Shown piece by piece: positions 10,411-57,141 of a stretch of 64,000 bases of DNA. The stretch comes from a virus (Duplodnaviria > Heunggongvirae > Uroviricota > Caudoviricetes), in IMG/VR virus record IMGVR_UViG_3300046318_000589, one strand, 5' to 3'. The notes beneath the pieces were generated by a model that saw nothing but the letters and a program-made list of their open reading frames with translations, was not told the origin of the DNA and did not search any database. The translations under genes and the position numbers were made by a program. Numbering within the stretch: position 1 is the first letter of the stretch; each line of letters opens with the position of its first letter.

Positions 10411-11397
10411 ATGAAAAACGGTATTTTTATTGGTCGGTTCTCCCCCCTCCACGAAGGTCATTATAGTTTGATAACAAGGGCTATTGAAAAATACAGTATT
10501 GATAAACTATATATTGGTATTGGTAGTGCAAACATTTCTGGAACTATTAAGAATCCCATGACTGTTTTTGAAAGAGAAAGCTATATTAAACAATTTTTTA
10601 TTCATAAGGGGGATATTTTTAACCTAGAAAAATTGTCATTTGAGTATATAGATGATTCTTATAATGAAGAACGTTGGCTATATTACATTGATAAAAAAAT
10701 AAAAGATTATAAAATTGATTATTTATTTTATCATGCAAAAAAAGATGGCTCAAGTTCATGGGTGGAAAATGTTTATTGTAAAAATGTTATTGATATTGAA
10801 CCAATTACAGATATATCAGCAACACAAATTAGACAATCTATCATTGACAATCCTCTCGTGGAAAACTATTTTTACGACTTCAATCCATATAGGGAGTATG
10901 TAAAATTTATAAATGATTATAATTCTAAATTTACCCATCCATACTGCAACAAAACAACTCATGTAACTGTTGATTTACTAATAAGAACAATAGATAATAA
11001 CCATAATAATGCTATTGTATTAATTAAACGAAATAAAGGCTTGGGTAGCGGTAAATATGCTTTAATTGGGGGGTTTGTTGAACCACATGAAACTTGTCTT
11101 GATGCAGTGATTAGAGAGTGTTACGAGGAAACAGGAATTATTATCCCTAAACAATTAATAGATGATGAATCAAAAGTATTTGATGCTCCAAATAGAAGTG
11201 ATAGAGGACGTATCATCACCCATGTTTATCAATGTTATTTGGAGTATTATAAATTGTTGGACATTATAAATAATTTTAAACCTAACGATGAAGTATCTGA
11301 AATAAAAATTGTATCTGAAGGAGAATTTAATTCAAATATTAAATATAACTCGTTTGAAGACCATTCTCTATTAGTCGATTATTGTATGAATTGGTAA
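10411..11397 (+). CDS. natV: bifunctional NMN adenylyltransferase / Nudix hydrolase (NatV/NadM-Nudix)
   Basis: The N-terminal GRFSPLHEGH matches the nucleotidyltransferase (H/T)xGH motif. The C-terminal Nudix box is GGFVEPHETCLDAVIRECYEETGI. Confidence 0.85.
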   Translation: MKNGIFIGRFSPLHEGHYSLITRAIEKYSIDKLYIGIGSANISGTIKNPMTVFERESYIKQFFIHKGDIFNLEKLSFEYIDDSYNEERWLYYIDKKIKDYKIDYLFYHAKKDGSSSWVENVYCKNVIDIEPITDISATQIRQSIIDNPLVENYFYDFNPYREYVKFINDYNSKFTHPYCNKTTHVTVDLLIRTIDNNHNNAIVLIKRNKGLGSGKYALIGGFVEPHETCLDAVIRECYEETGIIIPKQLIDDESKVFDAPNRSDRGRIITHVYQCYLEYYKLLDIINNFKPNDEVSEIKIVSEGEFNSNIKYNSFEDHSLLVDYCMNW

Positions 11398-11401
11398 AAT
11401 T

Positions 11402-11902
11402 ATGAGTTATTGGTCTCAAATATCAGGATTAATTGTCGTCAGTGGATTTTTTGACATCAAAATCATTAATAAAAACTCTCCTTTTGGTAGCGAGGGTGGG
11501 TTGGATTTTACTATAAACAGCTCCATAACAAACGATTATGGCACAAGTTATAGCAATAAACACCCTCAAGGAAAATCATATTTAAAATCAGAAATGTTCA
11601 CCAATATATCATTTTCTGGAAATTTGAGAGATTTTGAATCTGATAAAATCGTAAGAGTTGAAAAATGGTTAAATGGAATAGCACAATATTTTACTAAATT
11701 AAGTGATACTAATAAATATAAATATTTTAATGATGGTAAGGATTATCATCCTGAAAAACTAATGCCAATATTGTGTGATGTGAATATAAGAGTTTATAAT
11801 CGAGATTTATTAGTACATTTCTATCTTGATGAATCCTTTAAAGACAACACCACCATATACGAAATCTATAAAAGAGAAATCATAGAAAAGGAAATTATAT
11901 GA
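11402..11902 (+). CDS. hypothetical protein
   Basis: ORF of 166 aa, translationally coupled to natV. Confidence 0.45.
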   Translation: MSYWSQISGLIVVSGFFDIKIINKNSPFGSEGGLDFTINSSITNDYGTSYSNKHPQGKSYLKSEMFTNISFSGNLRDFESDKIVRVEKWLNGIAQYFTKLSDTNKYKYFNDGKDYHPEKLMPILCDVNIRVYNRDLLVHFYLDESFKDNTTIYEIYKREIIEKEII

Positions 11903-12129
11903 AACACAACCTATTATTAAACAGTGATGCTTACAAACATTCGCACAAAGATATGCTAGATAATGACATAGCATATATGAATAGTTATCTTGAATCTAGG
12001 GGAGGAACATTTAATAAAGTTTATTTCTTTGGGTTACAATATATCTTAAAAGAATATTTAACTACACCAATAACCCAAGCAGACCTTGATTATGCTTTTC
12101 CTATCCTCGATACAATAGGAACTGGATAG
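11899..12129 (+). pseudogene. nadV: NAMPT (NadV) N-terminal fragment, truncated by IS insertion
   Basis: NSDAYKHSHK...VYFFGLQYILKEYL aligns to NAMPT residues about 15-95 (DSYKVTHYKQ...FYGLQYILNKYL). The frame runs straight into the IS end, which supplies the TAG stop. Confidence 0.75.
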
Positions 12130-12149
12130 TTACAAATTTCTATGAAAAA

Positions 12150-13376
12150 TCAAGAAACTTGTTTTAGATGTAAACATCTTGGGTGAACTACAACACCCTC
12201 TATTTCATTCTTATTTTGGAATAATCCTGAAATTGCCTTTCTCATAATATTAAACGCACCGTTTAAATCAGAGTTTATTAATCTTCCATCCGAAGCACGA
12301 AACATTCCACGTTTAATTCTTTTACCTTTATATGTTTCATGTTTCTTGACATCTTCTAAGTCAAGAAAACTACACTTACTTGTATAAGATTCTTCGTGCT
12401 TGTTTACTACTATCCCAACTAATTCACATTTATAAGTTATCATTTTAACAAATGTATCATGGGGTATGTTTACAAAATTTTGATTATTCTTACTACCAAT
12501 ATTGATTTCTTGTTTTTGGTTAATGTTTTTCCCAATAATTAAATTAGTAACATCATTGGAAACTAAATGATTAACCAATAATCGACTTGCTTTATGCAAA
12601 TAATCGTTTATTTTATTGTTACGCTTAAATGTAAGCTTTTCTATGGATAATGAACTTTTCTTCCCTCCCTTTAATTTAATTTGAAGTTTTGCTTTCTTTT
12701 TATTATAGAACTGGTTCATTGATTTTAATGGATTGCCGTTAATAATAAATGGATTTTTCAAATCTGAGAAAGCAACAGTTGCTAAGTTTTTTAAACCTAA
12801 GTCAATAGAAGCTATATTTCCAACATCCTCTTTAAATGGGGTAATTTCTTTATTATACACAACCTCCACAACATAATGTGATTTCCTAGGTACTACCCTG
12901 ACTTGAGCTATATCGTTAAAATTTTCTATTTTACTTTTAATTCTAACATCACATCCTGAGAGTTTAATATATCCTTTTTTAAACTCTGTTTTTGAAATCG
13001 CTTGATTAGTAAATATTGTTACAAATCTTCCATCTGTTTTATCTAGGTAGCCAGGTATTTTCGGTTTACCTAAATATTTCTTTGGATTTTTCTTATAATC
13101 ATTATTTGCTTTAAAAAAACTTACAAAATTTTTATCAAGAACTTTTAATGTTTGTTGTACAACTTTAGCAGGTAATAATGAATAGCATTCCTTATATTTA
13201 GTTTTTAATTTCTTTTCAACTGAATAATAATTTAAATATTTTTCATTTTTTATAAATTCCTGTCTTATTAAGAAAAGTCCCATATTATAAATATTCTTAG
13301 ATTGAAAACATAATTCATCTAAAGACTTAAATGTCTTATTTGATTTCTTTATAATATGTTTCTCTACTAATTGCAT
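12150..13376 (-). CDS. tnpB: TnpB (OrfB, RuvC-like RNA-guided nuclease family)
   Basis: 408 aa with a RuvC-like split (SIDLGLKNLA ... E ... CxxC zinc finger ... NSDLNGAFNI). A hairpin AGATG-TTTA-CATCT lies at the 3' end. Confidence 0.85.
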   Translation of the reverse strand: MQLVEKHIIKKSNKTFKSLDELCFQSKNIYNMGLFLIRQEFIKNEKYLNYYSVEKKLKTKYKECYSLLPAKVVQQTLKVLDKNFVSFFKANNDYKKNPKKYLGKPKIPGYLDKTDGRFVTIFTNQAISKTEFKKGYIKLSGCDVRIKSKIENFNDIAQVRVVPRKSHYVVEVVYNKEITPFKEDVGNIASIDLGLKNLATVAFSDLKNPFIINGNPLKSMNQFYNKKKAKLQIKLKGGKKSSLSIEKLTFKRNNKINDYLHKASRLLVNHLVSNDVTNLIIGKNINQKQEINIGSKNNQNFVNIPHDTFVKMITYKCELVGIVVNKHEESYTSKCSFLDLEDVKKHETYKGKRIKRGMFRASDGRLINSDLNGAFNIMRKAISGLFQNKNEIEGVVVHPRCLHLKQVS

Positions 13377-13945
13377 GATAATTCTTGTATAAGTTTTTCA
13401 GTTTTACGTTTGGTTCGTCTTAGTCCGTATAATCGTGCAGTGAATGAAGTTATGATAGAAACAAAATCTTCCATTAAATCTTCTTTAATATTTTCTGGTG
13501 GGTTAATTATCTCAATACGCCTATTATCATTTGCCATAAGTTTCTCAATATAATTTAAACCAAATCTACAGAATCTATCTGAATGTTCAACAACTATAAC
13601 ATTTATATTTCTATTAGTCAATAACTTTTCTAGTTTAGGTCTTTTATCATTTAACCCAGAACCAATTTCACAGACAGCCTGCTCAACAATATATCCTTTA
13701 GCACTACAATAATCTAAAAGTCTATTCTTTTGTTTTTCTAAATTATCTTTGTTTTCAGATGATGACACTCTTGCATATATAGCAACTTTATTTATCGTAT
13801 CATTATCTTCTTCCACAACAAAGTTCAAACCTGTTGTTAATTTTTCAATTTTGATAAGACCTTTATAAAACCAGTTCCAAACAGTCCTCACAGTAACACC
13901 ATGCTTTTTAGCATAGTCAGATAACTTTAATATTTTTCTTGACAT
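13367..13945 (-). CDS. tnpA: IS607-type TnpA serine recombinase with N-terminal MerR-like HTH
   Basis: Catalytic YARVSS motif. HTH segment LSDYAKKHGVTVRTVWNW. It overlaps the tnpB start. Confidence 0.85.
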   Translation of the reverse strand: MSRKILKLSDYAKKHGVTVRTVWNWFYKGLIKIEKLTTGLNFVVEEDNDTINKVAIYARVSSSENKDNLEKQKNRLLDYCSAKGYIVEQAVCEIGSGLNDKRPKLEKLLTNRNINVIVVEHSDRFCRFGLNYIEKLMANDNRRIEIINPPENIKEDLMEDFVSIITSFTARLYGLRRTKRKTEKLIQELSCN

Positions 13946-14042
13946 TTACTTCCTTTCTTTATATAATTAGCTAATGTTGTTTTATGAAAAATTACATTAT
14001 TTTTTCATAATATTTCATAAGAAAATAAGAAGTTATTTAATA

Positions 14043-14798
14043 CCTGCCCTACAATTATTGATTGATTATTATAATTACCTACCCACTAATCCTATTAGCG
14101 TAAGAGCGTCTGAGCATAGCATCATGTGTCAACGAGGACGTTTAGGTGAACATGATATTGCTAGAAATATTGTATTATCACACCCCGATAAAATCACATC
14201 TATTGTAATTGATGCGTACAACGATGAAAAATTCTTGGATTTTATTGGCACTGAATTAAAAGAAGATATTAAGAAAAGAACAGCACCCCTGATTATAAGA
14301 CCTGATAGTAAGACACCGATCGAAGCAATTATGATGTGCTTTAATAAATTGGAATATTATTTTGGTTCAACATTTAACTCTAAAGGGTATAAAGTTCTAC
14401 CACCATATATCCGTATTATTCAAGGAGATGGTATCAATATTGATTCTATTGATGAAATATTAATACAGTTAGTCGATAATAAAATATCCATTGATAATGT
14501 TATTTTCGGTATGGGAGGTGCGTTGTTGCAAAAAATTGATAGAGATACCCAAAAATTTGCAATCAAATGTAGTCAAGTAACATTAAAAGATGGTACTACA
14601 AGAAATGTTTTCAAAGACCCTATTGGTGATAAGGGTAAGAAGTCTAAATCAGGTAAACTGGCATTAATTTATGATGATGGTTATCACACAATGAGAATAC
14701 AAGAAATTCGAGGAAAAGAAAATTTATTGAAATTAGTTTATAAAAACGGTAAACTAATGAACGAACAATCATTTCCATTCAAGGTAACGTCAAACTAA
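14043..14798 (+). pseudogene. nadV: NAMPT (NadV) C-terminal fragment
   Basis: LLIDYY..PISVRASEHS...IIRPDSKTP...KGYKVLPPYIRIIQGDGINIDSIDEI...FGMGGALLQKIDRDTQKFAIKCSQV...NVFKDPIGD..KSKSGKLAL aligns to NAMPT residues about 225-430. Residues about 95-225 are missing. Confidence 0.8.
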
Positions 14799-17214: not shown

Positions 17215-17892
17215 TTAGAGTATAAATGTCCACTGATACCCTTTATGTGATTTACTTTTACCGATACAACATTTTGAAACAGTGCTAAAATCGAACCCGT
17301 CTAATTTTGTTGCATTAACTGATGGGTATTCCTTTATAAGGACATCATCTTTATATTGACCAACTCTTTTCTTTGGTTTTGCATCACTCATTTTCTTTCT
17401 TGTTTCATCTGTATGTTTATATCCTAAACTATTTGTATTACCTTTATATGCGTCACTTATTTTCTTTCTTGTTTCATCCGTCCTTTTTTTACCCCTATTA
17501 CCATCACTCATTTTCTTTCTTGCTTCTTCAGTATGTTTATAACCAACAGAACCCTCTCCTCCTGCTGTCATATTCACTAAAGTACCAGTTCCTAAATCTC
17601 TTCTCCCATAAAGTAGAATAAACTCAACTTCTTTTCTATTTGCTTCCTCTTCTGATAAGCCCTCTATCATTATTTCTATTCTATATTCAGTTTTATTAAT
17701 CACATTATGCCAATGTGGATTACTACGGTGTGTATTTTTACTTCTTTCATATTTTCCATCAATATTAGTTCCTTTACCTATATAAAATACTTCATTTTTA
17801 TCTAAACGAATATGTCTGTATATGTAACAGAGTTTTTGTTCTTGATTATTTTTATTATTTATGGTACTATGACCATGTGGATTATTATCCAT
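17215..17892 (-). CDS. GIY-YIG homing endonuclease with NUMOD3 repeats (Seg/I-TevI-like), copy 1
   Basis: [19 protein letters not shown] (GIY-YIG), three TEEARKKMSD-type NUMOD3 repeats, and a C-terminal CCIGKSKSHKGYQW. The probable start is MDNNPHG at 17892; the ORF-track Met at 17922 lies inside the leader hairpin. Confidence 0.8.
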   Translation of the reverse strand: MDNNPHGHSTINNKNNQEQKLCYIYRHIRLDKNEVFYIGKGTNIDGKYERSKNTHRSNPHWHNVINKTEYRIEIMIEGLSEEEANRKEVEFILLYGRRDLGTGTLVNMTAGGEGSVGYKHTEEARKKMSDGNRGKKRTDETRKKISDAYKGNTNSLGYKHTDETRKKMSDAKPKKRVGQYKDDVLIKEYPSVNATKLDGFDFSTVSKCCIGKSKSHKGYQWTFIL

Positions 17893-43263: not shown

Positions 43264-44223
43264 CTATAAATATTTCCAATAATAACTTTTGTGTGATTTA
43301 CGTTTACCTAAACAACAAGCACTGACATTACTGGGGATATAACCATCAGCTCTGGTAGCTTCAATGGAATGATATACTTTTATAAGAATACCGTCCTTAT
43401 ATTGTCCTACTGGTTTACAGTATGACGCATGACGCAGATTTTCTTTAGCCTCCTCAGACATTTTCTTACTTTTATGTTTATCGCTAATTTTCTTTCTAAC
43501 CTGTTCCGATTGACAGGCATTCTCAAATCCATATTTTTCCAAATTAGTCTTTTTTACCTTATTACGAACCTCCTCTAAAAGAAATACGTTTTCTACCCCA
43601 TATTTTTCTAAAAAACTATTTTTTCTTTTTTTATTTATAAGATCATACCCTACAGAACTTTCTGTGCCATACCTTATTACATTAGTTTTATTCCTTTTTT
43701 CTTTAACGTACTCGCTACTTCTAGCATCCTCAACACCATACTTTTTTAAATTAGTTTCCCTAGTTTTACTTGCAACAGAATCTGATAATAAAGGACATTC
43801 CACCCCATATCTCTCTACGTTTGTATTACGTCTTTTCTCCTTAGATTCCTCCGTTGTTAATGCCCCATGACTACCCTGTCCACCGCTTGTTTTATTTACT
43901 AAAGTTCCTGTTCCTAAATCAACTCTTCCATATAATTTAATAAAATATTTTTCCTTTTTACCTAACATCTTAACAGGAACGTCTTTTAGCAAGATTTCAA
44001 CTCTATATTCTGTATTATCAACTACTTCACTCCATTCGTCACTCCTATCCCTTGAATAAGCACGTTCATATTTTCCGTTATCCGTGGTACTTATACCTAT
44101 GTAAAACGGCATATTAGTATCAAGTCTTATATGACGATAAACATACCCAAATTTAATTTTATCTTGATTTTTTGTTTCTTCTGTGTTATCATTAACACAT
44201 GAATTAGCGTTGCTAATTATCAT
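43264..44223 (-). CDS. GIY-YIG homing endonuclease with multiple NUMOD3 repeats, copy 2
   Basis: Starts MIISNANSC. Contains [19 protein letters not shown], six or more KYGVE/EKYG NUMOD3-like repeats, and a C-terminal CCLGKRKSHKSYYWKYL. The ORF-track Met at 44271 lies inside the leader hairpin. Confidence 0.8.
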   Translation of the reverse strand: MIISNANSCVNDNTEETKNQDKIKFGYVYRHIRLDTNMPFYIGISTTDNGKYERAYSRDRSDEWSEVVDNTEYRVEILLKDVPVKMLGKKEKYFIKLYGRVDLGTGTLVNKTSGGQGSHGALTTEESKEKRRNTNVERYGVECPLLSDSVASKTRETNLKKYGVEDARSSEYVKEKRNKTNVIRYGTESSVGYDLINKKRKNSFLEKYGVENVFLLEEVRNKVKKTNLEKYGFENACQSEQVRKKISDKHKSKKMSEEAKENLRHASYCKPVGQYKDGILIKVYHSIEATRADGYIPSNVSACCLGKRKSHKSYYWKYL

Positions 44224-44300
44224 AACCTGGTGTCCTTCCTTGACATTAGAGCCAACAGATGCTGAACACATCGTGTTGGCGTTTTTATATAATAATTAGG
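44224..44300 (-). promoter_or_regulatory. conserved homing-endonuclease leader with hairpin
   Basis: CCTAATTATTATATAAAAAC followed by GCCAACACGATG-N8-CATCTGTTGGC, then TCTAATGTC and an AAGGAAGG Shine-Dalgarno sequence. Confidence 0.6.
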
Positions 44301-44359
44301 AAAATATAAAAATAATTTCAAATGTCAACACCACCAAAGACTTACGTCTTTAAAAAAAT

Positions 44360-46582: not shown

Positions 46583-46997
46583 TGTTTGGTATTTTAAGGA
46601 TACCATATTTACAGTATCTGATATAGGGGATTACACAGGATTTGTATATCAGATACACAATCTTACCAATGATAAAAAATATATTGGTAAGAAAGAATTT
46701 TATAAGGTTATAAAAAGACCCCCTTTAAAAGGTAAAAAGAATAAAAGAAAAGCTACTGTATTTACAGATTGGCAAACCTATACAGGTTCATCAAACGATT
46801 TAAATAATGATATAGGATTAGGGCATATAATAAGAAAAGAAATACTAAAATTATGCACCTCTAAAAGCTCCACAACATATTATGAATTAAAAGAACAAAT
46901 GTTTGTTGATGCTTTATTTAAAGATGATTACTATAATCAGATAATAAATATTCGTTTATCAAGTATCTGTAAAAATAATATTTTAAAAGATTTATAA
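46575..46997 (+). CDS. short GIY-YIG domain protein (degenerate homing endonuclease?), copy 3
   Basis: GFVYQIHNLTNDKKYIGKKE fits the GIY-x10-YIG pattern. No NUMOD3 tail. The ATG overlaps the upstream stop (ATGCTTGA). Confidence 0.45.
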   Translation: MLDVWYFKDTIFTVSDIGDYTGFVYQIHNLTNDKKYIGKKEFYKVIKRPPLKGKKNKRKATVFTDWQTYTGSSNDLNNDIGLGHIIRKEILKLCTSKSSTTYYELKEQMFVDALFKDDYYNQIINIRLSSICKNNILKDL

Positions 46998-47678
46998 ATA
47001 TCCCCACTCATAACCTCCATGGGTTTTACGTTTACCTAAACAACAATCACCTACATTAGCAAGAATAAAACCATCTAATTTAGTTGATGTTAATGATGGG
47101 TATTCTTTTATAAGGATTCCATCTTTATATTTACCTACTCTTTTCTTTGGTTTTGCATCGCTCATTTTTTTTCTTGATTCTTCAGTGCGTTTTTTACCCG
47201 TGTTAGATTTTATCCGTTTTGTTATGTGTTCTTCAGTCTGTTTTTTACCTAAACAATATTTATGTCCTTTATTTGCATCACTTTGTTTCTTTCTTGTTTC
47301 TTCAGAGCGAATAGCACCACTAGAACCCTCTCCACCATCAGTCATATTCACTAAAGTACCTGTCCCCAAATCCCTTCTTCCATATAATTTAATGAAATAT
47401 TTTTCTTTTTTATTGACTTCCTCTTCTGATAATTCTTCCAACATTATTTCTACTCTATACTCACATTTATTAACCACATTATGCCAATGTGGATTGACCC
47501 TATCTTTAGAGTATGCTCTCGAATATCTACCGTTCGTATTTGTTCCTTTACCTATATAAAACACTTCATTTCTATCAAGTCTTATATGACGATAAACGTA
47601 ACCTAATTTATTTTTTGATTGATTTTTATTTGAATATGTGATACTATTTTCACATGATTTAGCAATGCTAATTATCAT
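46992..47678 (-). CDS. GIY-YIG homing endonuclease with NUMOD3 repeats, copy 4
   Basis: MIISIAKSC start, YVYRHIRLDRNEVFYIGKG, and a C-terminal CCLGKRKTHGGYEWGYL. Confidence 0.85.
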   Translation of the reverse strand: MIISIAKSCENSITYSNKNQSKNKLGYVYRHIRLDRNEVFYIGKGTNTNGRYSRAYSKDRVNPHWHNVVNKCEYRVEIMLEELSEEEVNKKEKYFIKLYGRRDLGTGTLVNMTDGGEGSSGAIRSEETRKKQSDANKGHKYCLGKKQTEEHITKRIKSNTGKKRTEESRKKMSDAKPKKRVGKYKDGILIKEYPSLTSTKLDGFILANVGDCCLGKRKTHGGYEWGYL

Positions 47679-47760
47679 ACCTGATGCCCTCCTATGGCGT
47701 TAGTGCCAACAGATGTGACAAGCATCGTGTTGGCTTTATAATTTAATTAGCTAAAATAAA
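47679..47760 (-). promoter_or_regulatory. conserved homing-endonuclease leader with hairpin
   Basis: GCTAATTAAATTATAAA followed by GCCAACACGATG-N8-CATCTGTTGGC, then ACTAACGCC and an AGGAGGG Shine-Dalgarno sequence. Confidence 0.6.
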
Positions 47761-49234: not shown

Positions 49235-49452
49235 TTTATGACAATAATATATATCATTATGTTTTTGGGGTTTATCTCAATATCATTCCCTATGATTTTA
49301 GGATATTTATATCCCCATAAAATATGCAATAAAGAGTTGGTAATATCCATAATTAGCGGTGTAAATAAAAACTCATAATTAATTTAGTAAAATATAGAAA
49401 AGCCTTGAAAACTTTTCCTAATTACATTATAAGGTATAAAAAAGGATTGTCA

Positions 49453-50013
49453 ATGAAAAAAATATCACAGTACGCTAAAGAGTGTGGTCTTTCTTACAGA
49501 ACAATATGGAATAGATGTAAAGAAGGAATTATCCCATATCACAAAGATATTAAAGGGAATATTTTTATCTTAGATAATGTTACTAAGAAAAATGATGCTA
49601 TCATCTATGCAAGGGTTTCAAATAACAATAGAAAAGAATCATTAATAGAACAGCAAAAATTCTTAGAAACATACGCATCATCAAAAGACTATAACATAGT
49701 TGGAAGTTTTAAAGAATTGGCTAGTGGAATGAATGATGAAAGAAAAATATTATCGTCTATTTTAAAAAGAGATGATTGGAATGTATTGGTTGTTGAGAAT
49801 AAAGATAGATTAACAAGATTTGGGTTTAATTATATAAAGACATTACTTGAGAAAAATAACAAGAGAATAGAGGTTGTGAATATTACAGATGATGATAAAC
49901 ATGACATTATGACAGACCTTGTTTCTGTAATATATAGTTTCTCCGCAAGAATTTATGGCAAAAGAAAAGCTAAAAGAAAAGAACAAATAACTGAGTTTTT
50001 AAACGAAAAATAA
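49453..50013 (+). CDS. tnpA: IS607-type TnpA serine recombinase
   Basis: MKKISQYAKECGLSYRTIWN (HTH) and IYARVSN catalytic serine motif. The ORF-track start at 49405 is probably too far upstream. Confidence 0.8.
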   Translation: MKKISQYAKECGLSYRTIWNRCKEGIIPYHKDIKGNIFILDNVTKKNDAIIYARVSNNNRKESLIEQQKFLETYASSKDYNIVGSFKELASGMNDERKILSSILKRDDWNVLVVENKDRLTRFGFNYIKTLLEKNNKRIEVVNITDDDKHDIMTDLVSVIYSFSARIYGKRKAKRKEQITEFLNEK

Positions 50014-51230
50014 TGATATTAACAGAAAAACATCAATATAAGTTTAATCAAGAGATGGATGATATATGCTTCCATACGAAAAACGTATATAATAGTTGTT
50101 TGTATATCATACGACAACACTTCTTTGAAACAGGAAAATATATTGGTGTTTACGATCTTTATCATAAAATAACAAAAGAGCCTGTGTGGAAAGAAACACC
50201 TTTACCCAAAAGGGTTTTAAATCAAACAATGAAATTGGCAGATCAAAATTTTAAATCATTTTTTAAAGCATTTGCAAGTTACAAAAAGACCCCATCAAAA
50301 TTTAAAGCAAGACCTAAAATACCTAGCTATAAAGACAGTGTTAAAGGTAGATTTGTTGCAACTTATGAAAAAGGTGCTATAAATAAAAAAGATTTCAAAA
50401 AAGGATATATTAAACTTTCAGGCTCTAATGTTTTAATAAAAACAAAAGTTGAAAATTTTAGTGACATAAAAGAAGTTAAGGTAATTCCTACAATCTATGG
50501 GTTTGAGGTTCTTGTTGTATATGAAAAATTATCTAAATCCCTTAAAGAAAGTGGATTGATATGCTCCATTGATTTAGGATTAAATAATCTTGCAACAGGG
50601 GCTTTTATTAATGGACAACAGCCTTTTATTATTAATGGACGACCTTTAAAGTCTATTAATCAATATTATAATAAGGAAAAATCTAAAAAACAGAGTAATT
50701 TAACAGGAGGAATAAAAACAAGTAAGTCAATTAAAACACTTACGCACAAAAGAAACAATAAAATGAACGATTATTTGCATAAAGCAAGTCGATTATTGGT
50801 TAATCATTTAGTTTCCAATGATGTTAGCTGTCTTATAATAGGCAATAACAAGCAATGGAAGCAAGAAATCAATATTGGTAGTAAGAATAATCAAAATTTT
50901 GTAAACATACCACACAACAGATTTATAGATATGTTAAAATACAAATGTGAACTGGAGGGAATTTTAGTTACTACTACAGAAGAATCTTATACCTCCAAGT
51001 GCAGTTTCTTAGACCTCGAAGAGGTCAAAAAACATGAAACATATAAAGGTAAAAGAATTAAACGTGGAATGTTCAAAGCGTCAAACGGACGCATGATAAA
51101 TGCTGATGTTAATGGTGCGTATAACATTATGAGAAAAGTAATCCCCGAAGCGTTTACGCATGAGGGGATAGAGGGATTTGCAGTAATCCCATCGAGAATG
51201 TCAAGACATTCTCTTAAAATAGTGATATAG
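50013..51230 (+). CDS. tnpB: TnpB
   Basis: 405 aa, about 60% identical to TnpB-1 (SIDLGLNNLA, YTSKCSFLDLEEVKKHETYKGKRIKRGMF, DVNGAYNI). Confidence 0.85.
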   Translation: MILTEKHQYKFNQEMDDICFHTKNVYNSCLYIIRQHFFETGKYIGVYDLYHKITKEPVWKETPLPKRVLNQTMKLADQNFKSFFKAFASYKKTPSKFKARPKIPSYKDSVKGRFVATYEKGAINKKDFKKGYIKLSGSNVLIKTKVENFSDIKEVKVIPTIYGFEVLVVYEKLSKSLKESGLICSIDLGLNNLATGAFINGQQPFIINGRPLKSINQYYNKEKSKKQSNLTGGIKTSKSIKTLTHKRNNKMNDYLHKASRLLVNHLVSNDVSCLIIGNNKQWKQEINIGSKNNQNFVNIPHNRFIDMLKYKCELEGILVTTTEESYTSKCSFLDLEEVKKHETYKGKRIKRGMFKASNGRMINADVNGAYNIMRKVIPEAFTHEGIEGFAVIPSRMSRHSLKIVI

Positions 51231-51282
51231 TTTTCTATATTATTATGTACTGTATCCAATATATAATCATATCATTCAAACA

Positions 51283-55289: not shown

Positions 55290-55540
55290 AAAATTCCTAA
55301 TATATAAGGTAATTAGCGGGGATATTTAACATAAAAAAAGACCCAACAAATCAATGTGGGTCTTCCAATTAAAAATATTATATTTTTTAAAAGCCTTTTA
55401 TTAAACTTTTAATATCACAATGTACTCCAAAACAAACCATCATCAAAGCAAATATTAACGTAATTAAGGACATTCCATTATATAGGTATAATATAACTTC
55501 ATATATAATTATGAAAAATAAAGAAGAATCTATGAAAATT

Positions 55541-55575
55541 TACTTGACAAATATTTAACTTAAAGGTAATATATA
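55541..55575 (+). promoter_or_regulatory. sigma70-like promoter (TTGACA, 17-nt spacer, TAATAT) driving the solo tnpB
   Basis: Consensus -35 hexamer, 17-nt spacer, -10-like hexamer. Confidence 0.5.
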
Positions 55576-55579
55576 TTTT

Positions 55580-56794
55580 ATGATTATAACAAGAAGCAGT
55601 AAGCATTATATCGTTGACATGAACCAAGGGAAGCACCGCTCCCTTGGGCTTATGTACAACGTCTTAAAAGATGCTACTGCTTCGTTTGTTAAACAAATCA
55701 TTCACGGTAATTTACCTTTAAAGACTAATTTGTCAAGTAAAGTATTACCATCAGTTGTTGGTGTTTCGCCGTGTGGTAACGTAGTTACCATAAACGGCGG
55801 ACAATACAAGCAACTGATATATAAGACTGCAAGCGAAATCGTGCGTTCCAATCTTGACTACGTCAAGGGACGCACGTTTAAGCGTTATAAGAAACTTTAC
55901 GCTTATTTTAAAGAAAGAAACCGACAGGTTTCCTTTATTAATAAGCGTTACAAAGATTTAAAAATAAATTATTTAAAAAGAATTGATATAGACCTTAACA
56001 AGTTTTCAATAAACCTCGACGAGAGGTTTATTGACTTTAGTCAAGGTCATCACTTTGATAATTTTATAAGAATTAAAACTGTTTTCATGGATGACAAGCA
56101 CAAAAACCGCAGGGTTTTTGTGAATTGTCCCATTAAAAACCATAAACATTCCAATAAATTTAAGGAATGGACAAGAAAAAAGACCGTGAGGCTGTCGAAA
56201 GACAGTACGAACGGTCGTCTTTATTTATCTTTTACTTATGAGAAGAAGATAGAAGAAAAAGTAACCAATGGTCAAATAGGATTTGACATTGGTTACAAAA
56301 AGCTATTATCTTCTTCCGAGGGTAATCATTATGGTACGCATCTGCATGAAATATACGGACGACTAGCACGCAAAGAGCGTGGTAGTCGTAACTATACGCA
56401 GATGCTACATCATAAGAAAACAGAGATAAATAGGGTTATAAACGGCTTAAAAATCAATAACAACGACATCGTTGTGGAAGATTTAAAAGCCGTAAGATAT
56501 AAATCTAAGTTAAGTAGTAAACTTTTGAATAAGTTGCAATACTGGAGTTATGGACAGGTATTGACTAAGCTGGAATCATTAAGCCAAACGGAAGGTTTCC
56601 GTTTGGTTAAGATTGACCCAGCTTATACAAGTCAAACCTGTCATTTGTGTGGTACAATAGACAGAACCGCCCGAAAGGGCGAATTGTATGAGTGTACCAC
56701 TTGTGGGCTTACGATTGACGCAGACACAAATGCGTCAATCGTCATACTACAACGAGGAACGTATAGTTCCTCGACACAAAAACAAGTTTCTTGA
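55580..56794 (+). CDS. tnpB: solo TnpB-like RuvC nuclease with no adjacent tnpA
   Basis: GFDIGYKK (RuvC-I), a CHLCG...CTTCG zinc finger and DADTNAS (RuvC-III). The C-terminus KQVS* is the same as TnpB-1. The 3' end shares 38 identical nt with the IS copy-1 right end. Confidence 0.75.
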   Translation: MIITRSSKHYIVDMNQGKHRSLGLMYNVLKDATASFVKQIIHGNLPLKTNLSSKVLPSVVGVSPCGNVVTINGGQYKQLIYKTASEIVRSNLDYVKGRTFKRYKKLYAYFKERNRQVSFINKRYKDLKINYLKRIDIDLNKFSINLDERFIDFSQGHHFDNFIRIKTVFMDDKHKNRRVFVNCPIKNHKHSNKFKEWTRKKTVRLSKDSTNGRLYLSFTYEKKIEEKVTNGQIGFDIGYKKLLSSSEGNHYGTHLHEIYGRLARKERGSRNYTQMLHHKKTEINRVINGLKINNNDIVVEDLKAVRYKSKLSSKLLNKLQYWSYGQVLTKLESLSQTEGFRLVKIDPAYTSQTCHLCGTIDRTARKGELYECTTCGLTIDADTNASIVILQRGTYSSSTQKQVS

Positions 56795-56816
56795 TTTTTC
56801 ATAGAAATTTGTAACT
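56735..56816 (+). ncRNA. candidate omegaRNA/right-end scaffold of the solo TnpB
   Basis: An 8-bp hairpin CGAGGAAC-GTATA-GTTCCTCG is followed by AACAAGTTTCTTGATTTTTCATAGAAATTTGTAACTAT, which is identical to the copy-1 right end. This call is an inference from TnpB biology. Confidence 0.4.
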
Positions 56817-57141
56817 ATGAATGAATTGATAAAAATAAAAACACAACATTTAAATTTCTTACAAACTGTAAAAAATACTTACCTACCATCCATTTTTGAT
56901 GATTATCCTCACATATCAATGATAAATTATCAGATGAATTATCGTCATCAGATGACAATTTCATAATCCAATAACCACCCATCAACATATATAATATTAC
57001 CCCACCAAGCATAATTAAGCTCTCCCCAATAGAATAACCGTAAATTATAGGAATAACAAGGCAACCTAACCCTAACTCTTTCATATTGGTAGCTATATAC
57101 TTTTGTATTCTTTTGTTTTGTAATGTTTTAAATATTGTCAT
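56815..57141 (-). CDS. small two-transmembrane membrane protein (holin-like)
   Basis: 108 aa with two hydrophobic helices. Confidence 0.35.
   Translation of the reverse strand: MTIFKTLQNKRIQKYIATNMKELGLGCLVIPIIYGYSIGESLIMLGGVILYMLMGGYWIMKLSSDDDNSSDNLSLICEDNHQKWMVGKYFLQFVRNLNVVFLFLSIHS

What the first reader, a model, noticed from the sequence alone, without database searches (positions are those of the whole stretch)
55541..56836. Solo TnpB with its own sigma70 promoter shares an identical 38-nt right end with IS copy 1, giving candidate omegaRNAs
Three TnpB genes are present: 12150-13376 (-), 50013-51230 (+) and 55580-56794 (+). The third has no tnpA and is preceded by TTGACA-17-TAATAT. Its last codons and the 38 nt after them (AACAAGTTTCTTGATTTTTCATAGAAATTTGTAACTAT) are identical to the right end of copy 1 at 12126-12163 on the minus strand, even though the two proteins are diverged. 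That conservation is the signature expected of an omegaRNA scaffold. Each TnpB 3' end also carries a hairpin: CGAGGAAC..GTTCCTCG, AGATG-TTTA-CATCT and GAGAATGTC..GACATTCTC. If the right-end boundary is just after GTAACTAT, the predicted guides are GAATGAATTGATAAAAATAA (56817-56836) and, for copy 1, CCAGTTCCTATTGTATCGAG (the minus-strand sequence of 12106-12125, which lies inside nadV). A phage-encoded, independently expressed TnpB could work as a programmable homing or anti-competitor nuclease.
Basis: partly seen in the sequence, partly recalled or inferred. Interest (0 to 1): 0.75.

Follow-up and report, generated by a model that had tools for sequence, protein, structure and literature searches.

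The report
Hitch-hiking TnpB element in a phage
[quoted passage not shown] The identical 40-base right end is a guide-RNA hairpin module most likely copied recently from that neighbour, so this is a variant of a known system and not a new one.

Summary
The identical block is 40 nt (56779-56818 = 12126-12165 on the minus strand), and the predicted guide is 56819-56838.

The third TnpB (22% identical to the other two) is not a free phage gene. It is a 1329-bp non-autonomous IS607-family element (55490-56818). The first ~60 nt of its left end are homologous to the left end of IS copy 1. Its right end stops at the family-wide motif ...GYAACTAT.

Across about 40 related elements, mostly on viral contigs, two features recur. 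A covarying hairpin lies in the last codons. A terminal hairpin of variable sequence ends 6 nt before the boundary. Together these fit the 3' part of an omegaRNA, and the shared block is that terminal module.

The exact identity is not scaffold conservation. The closest TnpB3 relatives (88% and 76%) differ inside the block. TnpB1 relatives (90% and 87%) carry it. The best explanation is recent gene conversion from copy 1, which also gives the element the repeat motif of the copy 1 ends.

The junctions read GT[A/G]T at the left flank and ACT[A/G]T at the right end, unlike the canonical GG of IS607. No RNA data or empty site could be found. Verdict: a new variant of a known kind, of moderate interest.

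The parts
55485..55489 (+). Predicted target-adjacent motif (TAM) GGTAT, abutting the left end of the TnpB3 element. The last two bases (AT) are the presumed crossover dinucleotide.
   Evidence: Homology among five elements starts at GTAT and the flanks differ before it. GGTAT occurs in WIN3, copy 1, L185 and L145; CGTAT occurs in L008.
55490..55579 (+). Left end (LE) of the TnpB3 element. It holds TTCATA/TATGAA repeats (55498-55503, 55510-55519, 55531-55539).
   Evidence: In alignment A7 the first ~60 nt are shared with L007 and L008 (solo TnpB3 elements) and with copy 1 and L185 (TnpA+TnpB1 elements).
55544..55572 (+). Sigma70-like promoter TTGACA-17-TAATAT inside the LE, upstream of tnpB3.
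   Evidence: 10/12 consensus match. TTGACA and a -10-like hexamer are kept in L007 and L008. Function is inferred.
55580..56794 (+). tnpB3 (404 aa), a RuvC/zinc-finger RNA-guided nuclease homologue of a clade found mostly on viral contigs.
   Evidence: Pfam Cas12f1-like_TNB. NCBIfam guided_TnpB 103 bits, cutoff 100. E300 and D382 are invariant and D236 nearly invariant in the 39-sequence alignment A4. dN/dS is 0.18-0.19 against L007 and L008.
56711..56742 (+). 12-bp stem-loop across the DADxNA codons, a candidate inner omegaRNA stem.
   Evidence: It is part of the minimum-free-energy fold. Across 30 relatives it is 67% paired with some compensatory pairs (helix 7). Support is moderate.
56753..56773 (+). 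Conserved hairpin CGAGGAAC-GTATA-GTTCCTCG in the last codons of tnpB3.
   Evidence: RNAalifold shows changes on both sides at 5 of 7 pairs. It is 91% paired, with G-U in 7-15 sequences (helix 8).
56779..56818 (+). The 40-nt block identical to copy 1. It comprises an A-rich linker, the terminal stem-loop ACAAGTTTCT/AGAAATTTGT (56782-56812, whose loop carries ATTTTTCATA at 56794-56803) and the unpaired tail AACTAT (56813-56818). It also supplies the last 4 codons and the stop of tnpB3, and the TAG stop of the convergent ORF.
   Evidence: The block is native to the TnpB1 lineage.
56819..56838 (+). Predicted omegaRNA guide (GAATGAATTGATAAAAATAA), the flank just outside the right end.
   Evidence: Assigned by position only. 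Its only close match in the window is itself.
56815..57141 (-). Flanking 108-aa membrane-protein-like ORF truncated by the insertion.
   Evidence: Removing 55490-56818 in silico restores a 141-aa ORF that continues through 55489-55387. No intact homologue is on record.
12126..14039 (-). IS607 copy 1 (1914 bp). It holds tnpA1 (13367-13945), tnpB1 (12150-13376) and the right-end block (12126-12165). TAM GGTAT is at 14044-14040. The predicted guide is the minus strand of 12125-12106.
   Evidence: It lies inside nadV.
49363..51253 (+). IS607 copy 2 (1891 bp). It holds tnpA2 (ATG at 49453, ending 50013) and tnpB2 (50013-51230). Its own inverted repeat AATATAGAAAA is at 49391-49401 and 51231-51241. 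The right end stops at GTACTGT. The putative TAM GGTGT is at 49358-49362 and the predicted guide at 51254-51273.
   Evidence: The covariance-model hit ends at 51253 but is not significant. The left boundary is inferred by analogy: 90 nt from the junction to the ATG, against 94 nt in copy 1.
8389..8441 (+). Relic of a copy-1-type right end: the last 14 codons of a tnpB1-like gene plus the first ~27 nt of the block, without the terminal AGAAATTTGTAACTAT.
   Evidence: I12, 94% over 53 nt.

Best explanation
The region 55490-56818 is a non-autonomous, TnpB-only IS607-family element inserted into a small membrane-protein ORF of a T4-like phage.

**Proposed mechanism (inferred from the established TnpB/omegaRNA model)**
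1. A promoter in the left end transcribes tnpB3 through the right end into the flank.
2. TnpB3 binds the 3' part of its own transcript. This part comprises stems over the last ~110 nt of the ORF, the conserved hairpin at 56753-56773, an A-rich linker, the terminal stem-loop at 56782-56812 and the tail AACUAU. TnpB3 uses the next 16-20 nt (56819 onward) as guide.
3. The complex would cut the element-free joint GGTAT|GAATGAATTG..., which arises after excision or exists in a co-infecting relative.
4. Recombinational repair from an element-bearing genome copies the element back. The result is retention or homing.

**Mobility**
Movement would depend on the serine transposase TnpA1 of IS copy 1 acting in trans. 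The element shares copy 1's left end (~60 nt) and right-end terminus.

**Origin of the 40-nt identity**
The perfect identity arose by short-patch gene conversion from a copy-1-type right end into the TnpB3 right end, within this phage lineage. It replaced the native terminal hairpin with one of the same architecture. It also installed the ATTTTTCATA repeat that matches the left-end repeats.

**What is shown and what is inferred**
Shown from sequence: the boundaries, the shared ends, the conserved and covarying RNA-like structure, the origin of the block, and purifying selection on tnpB3. Inferred: transcription, RNA processing, the TAM, cleavage, mobilisation by TnpA1 in trans, and homing.
For: **Family membership**
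- TnpB3 relatives are abundant on viral contigs. A subset have an IS607-type TnpA directly upstream.
- TnpA1 and TnpA2 are IS607 transposase equivalogs.

**Boundaries**
- The right-end terminus GYAACTAT is shared by at least 21 distinct elements and by copy 1, and the flanks diverge immediately after it.
- Left-end homology starts at GTAT in five elements with unrelated flanks.

**Crossover dinucleotide**
- In the near-identical elements L104 versus L110 and L107, the left junction reads GTAT versus GTGT and the right end reads ACTAT versus ACTGT. The penultimate base changes at both ends together, as expected for a 2-bp serine-recombinase crossover.
- Copy 2 shows a putative GGTGT (picked by eye) with ACTGT.

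**RNA structure**
- The fold z-score is -8.87.
- Helix 8 is 91% paired, with 5 of 7 pairs compensatory.
- A terminal hairpin ends 6 nt before the boundary in nearly all of ~47 elements.
- The sense strand folds better than the antisense strand in 30 of 38 elements (p=0.0006), with 42 versus 22 G-U pairs.

**Origin of the block**
- L185 and L186 (TnpB1 at 90% and 87%) carry it with one substitution.
- L007 and L008 (TnpB3 at 88% and 76%) differ by an indel plus about 9 mismatches, although the rest of the element is 88% identical.
- The G variant at position 8 of the block is shared by the window's two full copies and its relic, but not by L185 or L186.
- Copies 1 and 2 share exact tracts of 61, 50 and 44 nt, so conversion between IS copies recurs in this genome.

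**Other support**
- tnpB3 has dN/dS of 0.18-0.19 and intact RuvC residues.
- The mechanistic model comes from PMC10690162 (IS607 TnpA_S/TnpB: the TAM equals the target motif and the scaffold ends in the core dinucleotide) and from PMC10278001 (TnpB processes its own mRNA).
Against: - There are no expression or RNA data.
- No element-free allele was found for any of the three insertions. The metagenome collection does not contain this phage at all, so that search was uninformative.
- All contigs of this phage carry the insertions, so nothing shows current mobility.
- The TAM rests on about 5 objectively bounded elements plus several junctions picked by eye. One subgroup (L092-like) shows no clear GTAT.
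- The terminal hairpin could not be aligned column by column, so its covariation is not formally scored. The sense/antisense bias could partly reflect base composition.
- A palindrome near the end could also be a TnpA dimer site, independent of any RNA role.
- The direction of conversion rests on two relatives per lineage, and the L185 and L186 contigs stop 9-16 nt short of the boundary.
- Copy 1's two flanks are not contiguous in nadV: about 125 aa are missing and the flanks are out of frame. For copy 1 the simple model 'guide matches the empty site' cannot hold as written.
Confidence: 0.72

Rival explanations
1. First reader's view. The 38-40 nt are identical because they are a functionally constrained omegaRNA scaffold segment that both TnpB proteins require.
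For: The block does lie in the structured 3' module: a terminal hairpin plus the AACUAU tail. The last 13 nt (AATTTGTAACTAT) really are conserved across the family.
Against: The hairpin's sequence varies freely among relatives while its position is kept. The nearest TnpB3 relatives differ within the block, whereas TnpB1 relatives have it. The two proteins are 22% identical and their upstream scaffolds are unrelated: the covariance model aligns copy 1 only over the shared block, with the TnpB3 hairpin deleted. In ISFba1, the one IS607 TnpB with a solved RNA complex, nucleotides -1 to -21 of the scaffold are disordered and dispensable (PMC11061315).
Confidence: 0.1
2. The shared block is primarily a DNA site for the TnpA1 serine transposase (subterminal repeat or imperfect inverted repeat). 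The identity is maintained by selection for mobilisation in trans, and the RNA hairpin is incidental.
For: IS607 ends are known to carry short direct repeats and an imperfect inverted repeat near the ends, bound by multiple TnpA dimers (PMC6188088). TATGAAAAAT in the TnpB3 left end (55510-55519) is the exact reverse complement of ATTTTTCATA in the right-end block (56794-56803). Copy 1's left end has the near-identical TATGAAAAAAT (13999-14009), one extra A, and a direct TTTTTCATA (13983-13991). Copy 2, whose TnpA is only 43% identical, uses a different repeat, AATATAGAAAA. Very similar right ends occur with different TnpB clades, for example L123 (TnpB3-like) and L187 (TnpB1-like). L007's native right end lacks the perfect repeat partner that the converted window right end has.
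Against: The sense-strand bias in stability and in G-U pairs suggests RNA-level selection as well. This rival is largely compatible with the best explanation: it gives the reason a converted end would be kept. It does not by itself account for 40/40 identity.
Confidence: 0.15
3. Artefact or chance. The identity would come from assembly chimerism at a repeat, or from chance in AT-rich DNA.
For: Short-read contigs of this phage break at the repeat.
Against: None of 100 shuffles gave two matches. Both junctions, each with its own flank, recur in independent assemblies from 5 and 2 samples.
Confidence: 0.01

Closest known systems
IS607-family IS with TnpA_S + TnpB/omegaRNA, as characterised for the Clostridium botulinum IStron (PMC10690162)
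   Same: It pairs a serine-recombinase transposase with TnpB. The guide RNA is encoded at the right end. The motif at the left flank resembles the last bases of the scaffold but differs at one upstream position: TGGG versus UCGG there, GTAT versus CUAU here. The crossover dinucleotide is present at both junctions. TnpB-only derivatives persist.
   Different: No group I intron is present (Rfam found nothing). The termini and target read GT[A/G]T with core [A/G]T instead of the 'strict' GG. The host is a lytic-type T4-like phage genome. The solo element carries a different TnpB clade from the autonomous element whose ends it shares.
ISFba1-type IS607 TnpB with RAGATH-18-derived reRNA (PMC11061315)
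   Same: An IS607-associated TnpB of about 390 aa forms an RNA-guided dsDNA nuclease, with the guide immediately 3' of the transposon end.
   Different: No RAGATH-18 match was found, even at E<=10. In ISFba1 the ~184-nt RNA starts 13 nt downstream of the stop codon. Here the right end stops 24 nt after the stop codon, so the scaffold must overlap the ORF. The TAM there is AGGAG or GAGGG. TnpB3 matches PDB chain 8iaz_A (a 384-aa 'Transposase'; its identity as ISFba1 was not checked) only at E=3.6e-5 over the C-terminus.
ISDra2/IS200-IS605 TnpB-omegaRNA (PMC8612924, PMC10055086)
   Same: The omegaRNA overlaps the 3' end of tnpB and the right end. The guide is the flank. The role is cutting the empty donor joint so that the element is retained.
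   Different: The transposase partner is a serine recombinase, not an HUH/Y1 enzyme. There are no subterminal DNA hairpins for single-strand transposition. The best solved-structure match is weak (E=6e-12, C-terminal 115 aa only).
Non-autonomous IS derivatives mobilised in trans (MITE/PATE-like elements); free-standing homing endonuclease genes of T4-like phages
   Same: The element has matching ends but no transposase. It sits between or within phage genes, and its predicted spread is by double-strand break plus recombinational repair between co-infecting genomes.
   Different: It keeps a full-length nuclease gene under purifying selection. Target recognition would be RNA-guided rather than protein-based.

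Membership tests
IS607 family insertion sequence | Encodes a serine-recombinase transposase (TnpA) | tested here: not met
   No tnpA lies within 55490-56818. The feature is met for copy 1 and copy 2 (NCBIfam IS607 transposase equivalog, 176 and 151 bits) and for some TnpB3-clade relatives (L107, L108, L117, L128, L129). The TnpB3 element is therefore filed as a non-autonomous derivative.
IS607 family insertion sequence | No terminal inverted repeats or target duplication; short repeated motifs and an imperfect inverted repeat near the ends | tested here: met
   The termini (AATATAAC... and ...GTAACTAT) are unrelated. TTCATA/TATGAA repeats are present, and TATGAAAAAT (left end) pairs with ATTTTTCATA (right end). 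The feature is as described in PMC6188088.
IS607 family insertion sequence | Terminates in, and inserts at, a GG dinucleotide | tested here: not met
   The right ends stop in AT (or GT) and the left junction reads GT[A/G]T. A GG often lies 3 nt further out (GGTAT). This is the main departure from described IS607 elements (PMC13565253).
TnpB-omegaRNA (OMEGA) RNA-guided nuclease | TnpB with an intact RuvC D-E-D triad and zinc finger | tested here: met
   E300 and D382 are invariant, D236 is nearly invariant, and the CxxC...CxxC cysteines are invariant in A4. NCBIfam guided_TnpB scores above its cutoff.
TnpB-omegaRNA (OMEGA) RNA-guided nuclease | Conserved structured RNA at the tnpB 3' end and right end, ending at the transposon boundary | tested here: met
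   Fold z-score -8.9. Helix 8 covaries. The terminal hairpin is at a fixed distance from the boundary in ~47 elements and shows a sense-strand bias. The inner stems are only partly conserved.
TnpB-omegaRNA (OMEGA) RNA-guided nuclease | TAM at the left-end flank equals the transposase target motif | tested here: inconclusive
   GTAT or GTGT occurs at 8 objectively bounded junctions and at several picked by eye. The L092 subgroup is unclear. There is no cleavage data.
TnpB-omegaRNA (OMEGA) RNA-guided nuclease | RNA is expressed, bound by TnpB and directs DNA cleavage | not testable with these tools
   Needs RIP-seq or small-RNA-seq and cleavage assays.
RAGATH-18 reRNA-guided IS607 TnpB (ISFba1 type) | RAGATH-18 motif downstream of tnpB | tested here: not met
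   Rfam search at gathering threshold over the whole window gave 0 hits. At E<=10 over 56300-56900 there was no RAGATH-18 hit.
IStron (IS607/IS605 + group I intron) | Group I intron at the left end | tested here: not met
   No group I intron or any other Rfam family was found in the window.
TldR (nuclease-dead TnpB-derived repressors) | Inactivated RuvC site; guide targets a host promoter | tested here: not met
   The RuvC residues are intact. The guide region matches only its own flank.

The most novel reading that the evidence does not exclude
A TnpB clade found mostly on viral contigs has repeatedly been packaged between the ends of a different, autonomous IS607 lineage: ~60 nt of left end plus the guide-proximal right-end module. 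It would then parasitise that lineage's serine transposase. In T4-like phages it would spread mainly as an RNA-guided homing endonuclease between co-infecting genomes. On this reading the guide-proximal stem-loop of the omegaRNA is an interchangeable cassette set by the transposase and not by the nuclease. This IS607 subgroup also uses a GT[A/G]T target with an [A/G]T crossover instead of GG.
Probability: 0.35. Interest if true: 0.65.

Novelty: new variant of a known kind. Interest (0 to 1): 0.42.

Why it matters
This is a natural experiment on which parts of a transposon end serve the transposase and which serve the guide RNA. Two TnpB nucleases only 22% identical carry the same last 40 nt of scaffold, and one appears to have received it by gene conversion.

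If TnpB3 still works with the swapped module, the guide-proximal stem-loop is a free design element for compact TnpB editors. That would fit the dispensable -1 to -21 region of ISFba1.

The GT[A/G]T junctions would extend the target and TAM repertoire of IS607 systems beyond G-rich motifs.

Several IS607 elements in a T4-like phage, next to free-standing homing-endonuclease-like genes, make RNA-guided homing between phages directly testable.

Tried and rejected
- **Rfam at gathering threshold on the whole window:** no family of any kind. A permissive Rfam search around the right end gave only chance-level hits and no RAGATH-18. The ISFba1-type reRNA and IStron readings are therefore rejected.
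- **Megablast of the locus against GenBank phages:** no match.
- **Search for element-free alleles.**
  - Exact-protein look-ups of the gp5-like and NadR-like neighbours returned only contigs with the insertions, or contigs that break at the repeat.
  - The reconstructed 141-aa flanking ORF has no intact homologue.
  - A gapped empty-site DNA pattern found nothing in the metagenome collection. The same collection does not contain the occupied allele either, nor does the viral-contig collection, so this is not evidence of fixation.
- **In-silico rejoining of nadV across copy 1:** this failed. The flanks are out of frame and about 125 aa of NadV are missing. Copy 1 cannot be used to read a TAM/guide joint.
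- **Covariance model of the TnpB3-type 3' module:** it scored 66.6 bits on the window's own element and 33 bits on copy 1, via the shared block only. Copy 2 scored 13.5 bits, which is not significant. It therefore gives no evidence for a common fold across the three loci beyond the shared layout.
- **Mapping the window's minimum-free-energy structure onto 30 relatives:** only helices 7 and 8 are conserved. The other window-specific stems were dropped.
- **Automated left-end boundary calling by all-against-all BLAST:** it gave clean junctions for two subgroups only.
- **TldR-like domestication:** rejected, because the RuvC site is intact.
Full report
**1. Observation**

The window holds three TnpB ORFs at the stated coordinates.
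- TnpB1 (12150-13376, minus strand) and TnpB2 (50013-51230) match Pfam OrfB_IS605 and the TNB domain. Each follows a serine recombinase that NCBIfam calls an IS607 family transposase (176 and 151 bits, cutoff 110).
- TnpB3 (55580-56794) hits only the TNB domain in Pfam. It just passes NCBIfam guided_TnpB (103 bits, cutoff 100).
- TnpB3 is 22% identical to each of the other two. TnpB1 and TnpB2 are 59% identical to each other.

The identical stretch is 40 nt: 56779-56818(+) and 12126-12165(-). None of 100 shuffles gave two matches. It is the only exact match of 15 nt or more between the two elements. Both junctions recur with their own flanks in independent assemblies. TTGACA-17-TAATAT is at 55544-55572 and is kept in two relatives.

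Two corrections apply. A fourth, degenerate copy of the copy-1 right end lies at 8389-8441.

**2. Genome context**

The neighbours are T4-type baseplate genes: a gp5-like hub/lysozyme, gp6-like and T4_baseplate. The gp6 homologue is only 33% identical to Methylophilales phage Melnitz and to cyanomyoviruses. The host genome is therefore an uncultured T4-like phage, seen in several JGI and SRA metagenomes.

**3. TnpB3 is a mobile element, not a stand-alone phage gene**

A protein search found an identical protein on 9 contigs, relatives at 88% (L007) and 76% (L008), and well over 100 relatives at 38-55%. A pattern scan of viral contigs returned about 60 near-full-length relatives, often several per contig. 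Five of these have an IS607-type TnpA directly upstream (L107, L108, L117, L128, L129). Most are solo.

*Right boundary.* The window, L007, L008 and copy 1 all end in AATTTGTAACTAT and diverge immediately afterwards. GYAACTAT, with 0-1 mismatch, terminates more than 40 distinct elements.

*Left boundary.* Homology among the window element, L007 and L008 (solo TnpB3) and copy 1 and L185 (TnpA+TnpB1) begins at GTAT. It runs for about 60 nt: GTAT.A.ATAACTT..TAT.T..TTATGAA..AT.A.GAA. All five upstream flanks are unrelated.

The element is therefore 55490-56818. It is flanked on the left by GGTAT, and it carries the left end of the copy-1 lineage.

**4. Junction chemistry**

Canonical IS607 elements end in GG and insert at GG (PMC6188088; PMC10690162; PMC13565253). 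Here the left junction reads GT[A/G]T and the right end reads ACT[A/G]T.

The strongest evidence is a natural comparison. L104, L110 and L107 are near-identical elements. L104 has GTAT at the left and ACTAT at the right. L110 and L107 have GTGT and ACTGT. The base changes at both ends together, as expected if [A/G]T is the 2-bp crossover of the serine recombinase.

Copy 2 fits, although its left junction was picked by eye: GGTGT at 49358-49362, right end ...GTACTGT at 51253, and 90 nt from the junction to the tnpA ATG against 94 nt in copy 1.

The left-flank motif (G-T-A-T) and the scaffold end (C-U-A-U) differ at one upstream position. This parallels TGGG versus UCGG in the C. botulinum element. 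It suggests the same way of avoiding self-targeting. The TAM itself is inferred.

**5. RNA structure**

The last 219 nt up to 56818 fold far better than shuffles (-82.6 kcal/mol against -45.6; z=-8.87). For copy 1 the z-score is -4.0.

In an alignment of the last 225 nt of 30 relatives:
- RNAalifold keeps one helix, the hairpin at 56753-56773. Five of its 7 pairs change on both sides.
- On the window's own fold, that helix is 91% paired, with G-U in 7-15 sequences.
- The 12-bp stem over the DADxNA codons is 67% paired.
- The remaining stems are not conserved.

Folding the last 62 nt of 47 elements shows a terminal hairpin of very different sequence in nearly every one. It ends exactly 6 nt before the boundary and leaves AACUAU or GACUGU unpaired. 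Over 38 non-redundant elements the sense strand folds better than the antisense in 30 (Wilcoxon p=0.0006). G-U pairs number 42 on the sense strand and 22 on the antisense.

All three window elements share the same layout:
1. A hairpin in the last codons.
2. An A-rich linker.
3. A terminal hairpin.
4. A tail reading (A/U)ACU(A/G)U.

This is the architecture expected of the 3' part of an omegaRNA. The 40-nt block comprises the linker, the terminal hairpin and the tail.

No Rfam family matches. In particular there is no RAGATH-18, the motif of the only structurally characterised IS607 TnpB RNA. That RNA lies wholly downstream of the ORF. Here only 24 nt separate the stop codon from the boundary.

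**6. Why the block is identical**

The window TnpB3 element and L007 are 88% identical overall. Inside the block they differ by a 9-nt indel and about 9 mismatches. L008 differs even more.

Copy 1's relatives tell the opposite story. L185 and L186 carry TnpB1 at 90% and 87% and come from other samples. They have AAAACAAATTTCTTGATTTTTCATAGAAAT: the block with one substitution, as far as their contigs reach. The block is therefore native to the TnpB1-type IS and foreign to the TnpB3 lineage.

The window's two full copies and the relic share G at position 8 of the block, where L185 and L186 have A. This points to exchange within this phage lineage. Copies 1 and 2 also share exact tracts of 61, 50 and 44 nt inside genes that are otherwise about 75% identical. 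Short-patch conversion between IS copies is therefore recurrent here.

A covariance model built from 33 TnpB3-type right ends scores copy 1 at 33 bits over the shared block only, with the TnpB3 hairpin deleted. It does not detect copy 2 (13.5 bits, E=6.6).

The identity is therefore recombination-derived. It is not convergent or conserved scaffold sequence.

**7. Why the converted end might be kept**

IS607 ends carry short repeats and an imperfect inverted repeat that load multiple TnpA dimers. The repeats here are as follows.
- TATGAAAAAT in the TnpB3 left end (55510-55519) is the exact reverse complement of ATTTTTCATA in the block (56794-56803).
- Copy 1's left end has the near-identical TATGAAAAAAT, one extra A (13999-14009), and a direct TTTTTCATA (13983-13991).
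- Copy 2, whose TnpA is 43% identical, uses AATATAGAAAA at both ends.
- L007's native right end has only a degenerate partner.

Very similar right ends also accompany different TnpB clades elsewhere, for example L123 (TnpB3-like) and L187 (TnpB1-like). The right-end module therefore seems to track the transposon chassis more than the nuclease.

In ISFba1 the 21 scaffold nucleotides next to the guide are disordered and dispensable. That makes an exchangeable guide-proximal stem-loop plausible.

**8. Is tnpB3 functional?**

E300 and D382 are invariant, D236 is nearly invariant, and the zinc-finger cysteines are invariant in the family. dN/dS is 0.19 against L007 and 0.18 against L008. The conversion rewrote the last four codons to KQVS-stop, the same as in TnpB1. 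The closest solved structures match only the C-terminal ~115 residues (E=6e-12).

**9. Insertion sites**

Deleting 55490-56818 in silico restores a 141-aa membrane-like ORF. The right end currently supplies the TAG stop of its 108-aa remnant. No intact homologue exists in the protein database.

Copy 1 lies in nadV. The N-part aligns to NAMPT residues 19-89 and the C-part to about 215-468. The flanks are out of frame, so a deletion accompanied or followed the insertion.

No empty site was found for any copy. The metagenome collection lacks this phage altogether. The guides match nothing else in the window.

**10. Verdict**

Its central inference is wrong, because the identity does not reflect scaffold conservation.

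The object is a TnpB-only IS607-family element that rides on the ends of a co-resident autonomous IS607. Its right-end/omegaRNA terminal module was recently overwritten by that neighbour.

Against known systems it is a variant in five respects:
- It has non-GG termini.
- Its scaffold overlaps the ORF and lacks RAGATH-18.
- Its TnpB clade is found mostly on viral contigs.
- Its ends are shared across TnpB clades.
- It resides in a T4-like phage.

Transcription, processing, the TAM, cleavage, mobilisation in trans and homing all remain inferences.

Noticed in passing
window 8389-8441 (+): A relic of a copy-1-type right end with no gene attached. It holds the last 14 codons of a tnpB1-like ORF plus the first ~27 nt of the shared block. 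The A-to-G change in the AGATG/CATCT hairpin keeps a G-U pair. The terminal AGAAATTTGTAACTAT is replaced by sequence that also occurs at 44282-44309.
   Followed up: partly
window 11899-12125 and 14040-14798 (+), around IS copy 1: IS607 copy 1 interrupts nadV. The two fragments align to NAMPT residues 19-89 and about 215-468, so about 125 aa are missing and the flanks are out of frame. nadV is a broken gene here, while the NadR-like NMNAT/NUDIX gene upstream (10411-11397) is intact.
   Followed up: partly
window 13939-13967 (+): A perfect TTGACA-17-TATAAT (12/12) lies on the strand opposite to tnpA1 and overlaps its start codon. It points out of the IS into the nadV C-terminal fragment, so it could be an IS-borne outward promoter.
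   Followed up: no
window 12344-12668 versus 50766-51073: tnpB1 and tnpB2 (59% aa identity) share exact DNA tracts of 61, 50 and 44 nt. This indicates gene-conversion mosaicism between the two autonomous IS607 copies.
   Followed up: partly
window 17221-17856, 43267-44303, 46982-47747, 58439-59244: A multi-copy, diverged gene family (60-86% DNA identity, both orientations). One member has a faint NUMOD3 hit. These are probably free-standing homing-endonuclease genes, so this phage carries both protein-guided and RNA-guided homing candidates.
   Followed up: no
L092, L096, L097, L135, L156 (about 3620-3640 in each locus): TnpB3-family genes on these viral contigs carry an in-frame TGA inside the catalytic DAD-x-NA motif (GAT TGA AAT). 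This suggests phages that read TGA as a sense codon.
   Followed up: no
L112 and L113, about 200 nt upstream of the TnpB gene: These elements keep an ORF that corresponds only to the N-terminal helix-turn-helix part of the IS607 TnpA and lack the catalytic domain. It could be a retained end-binding or regulatory remnant.
   Followed up: no
L011 (uncultured Bacilli MAG), L142, L160: TnpB1-type and TnpB3-type elements sit within 1-2 kb of each other in other genomes too. In L011 the neighbouring TnpA is 64% identical to TnpA1. Co-residence of the two lineages is therefore not unique to this phage.
   Followed up: partly
window 49239-49379 (+) and 49358-49362: IS607 copy 2 also sits in the 3' end of a small hydrophobic ORF, and the left end supplies that ORF's last codons and stop. 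All three IS copies are thus inserted within ORFs.
   Followed up: partly
window 57726-58145 (-): A 139-aa ORF with a GmrSD_N (type IV restriction-like) domain lies two genes from the TnpB3 insertion.
   Followed up: no
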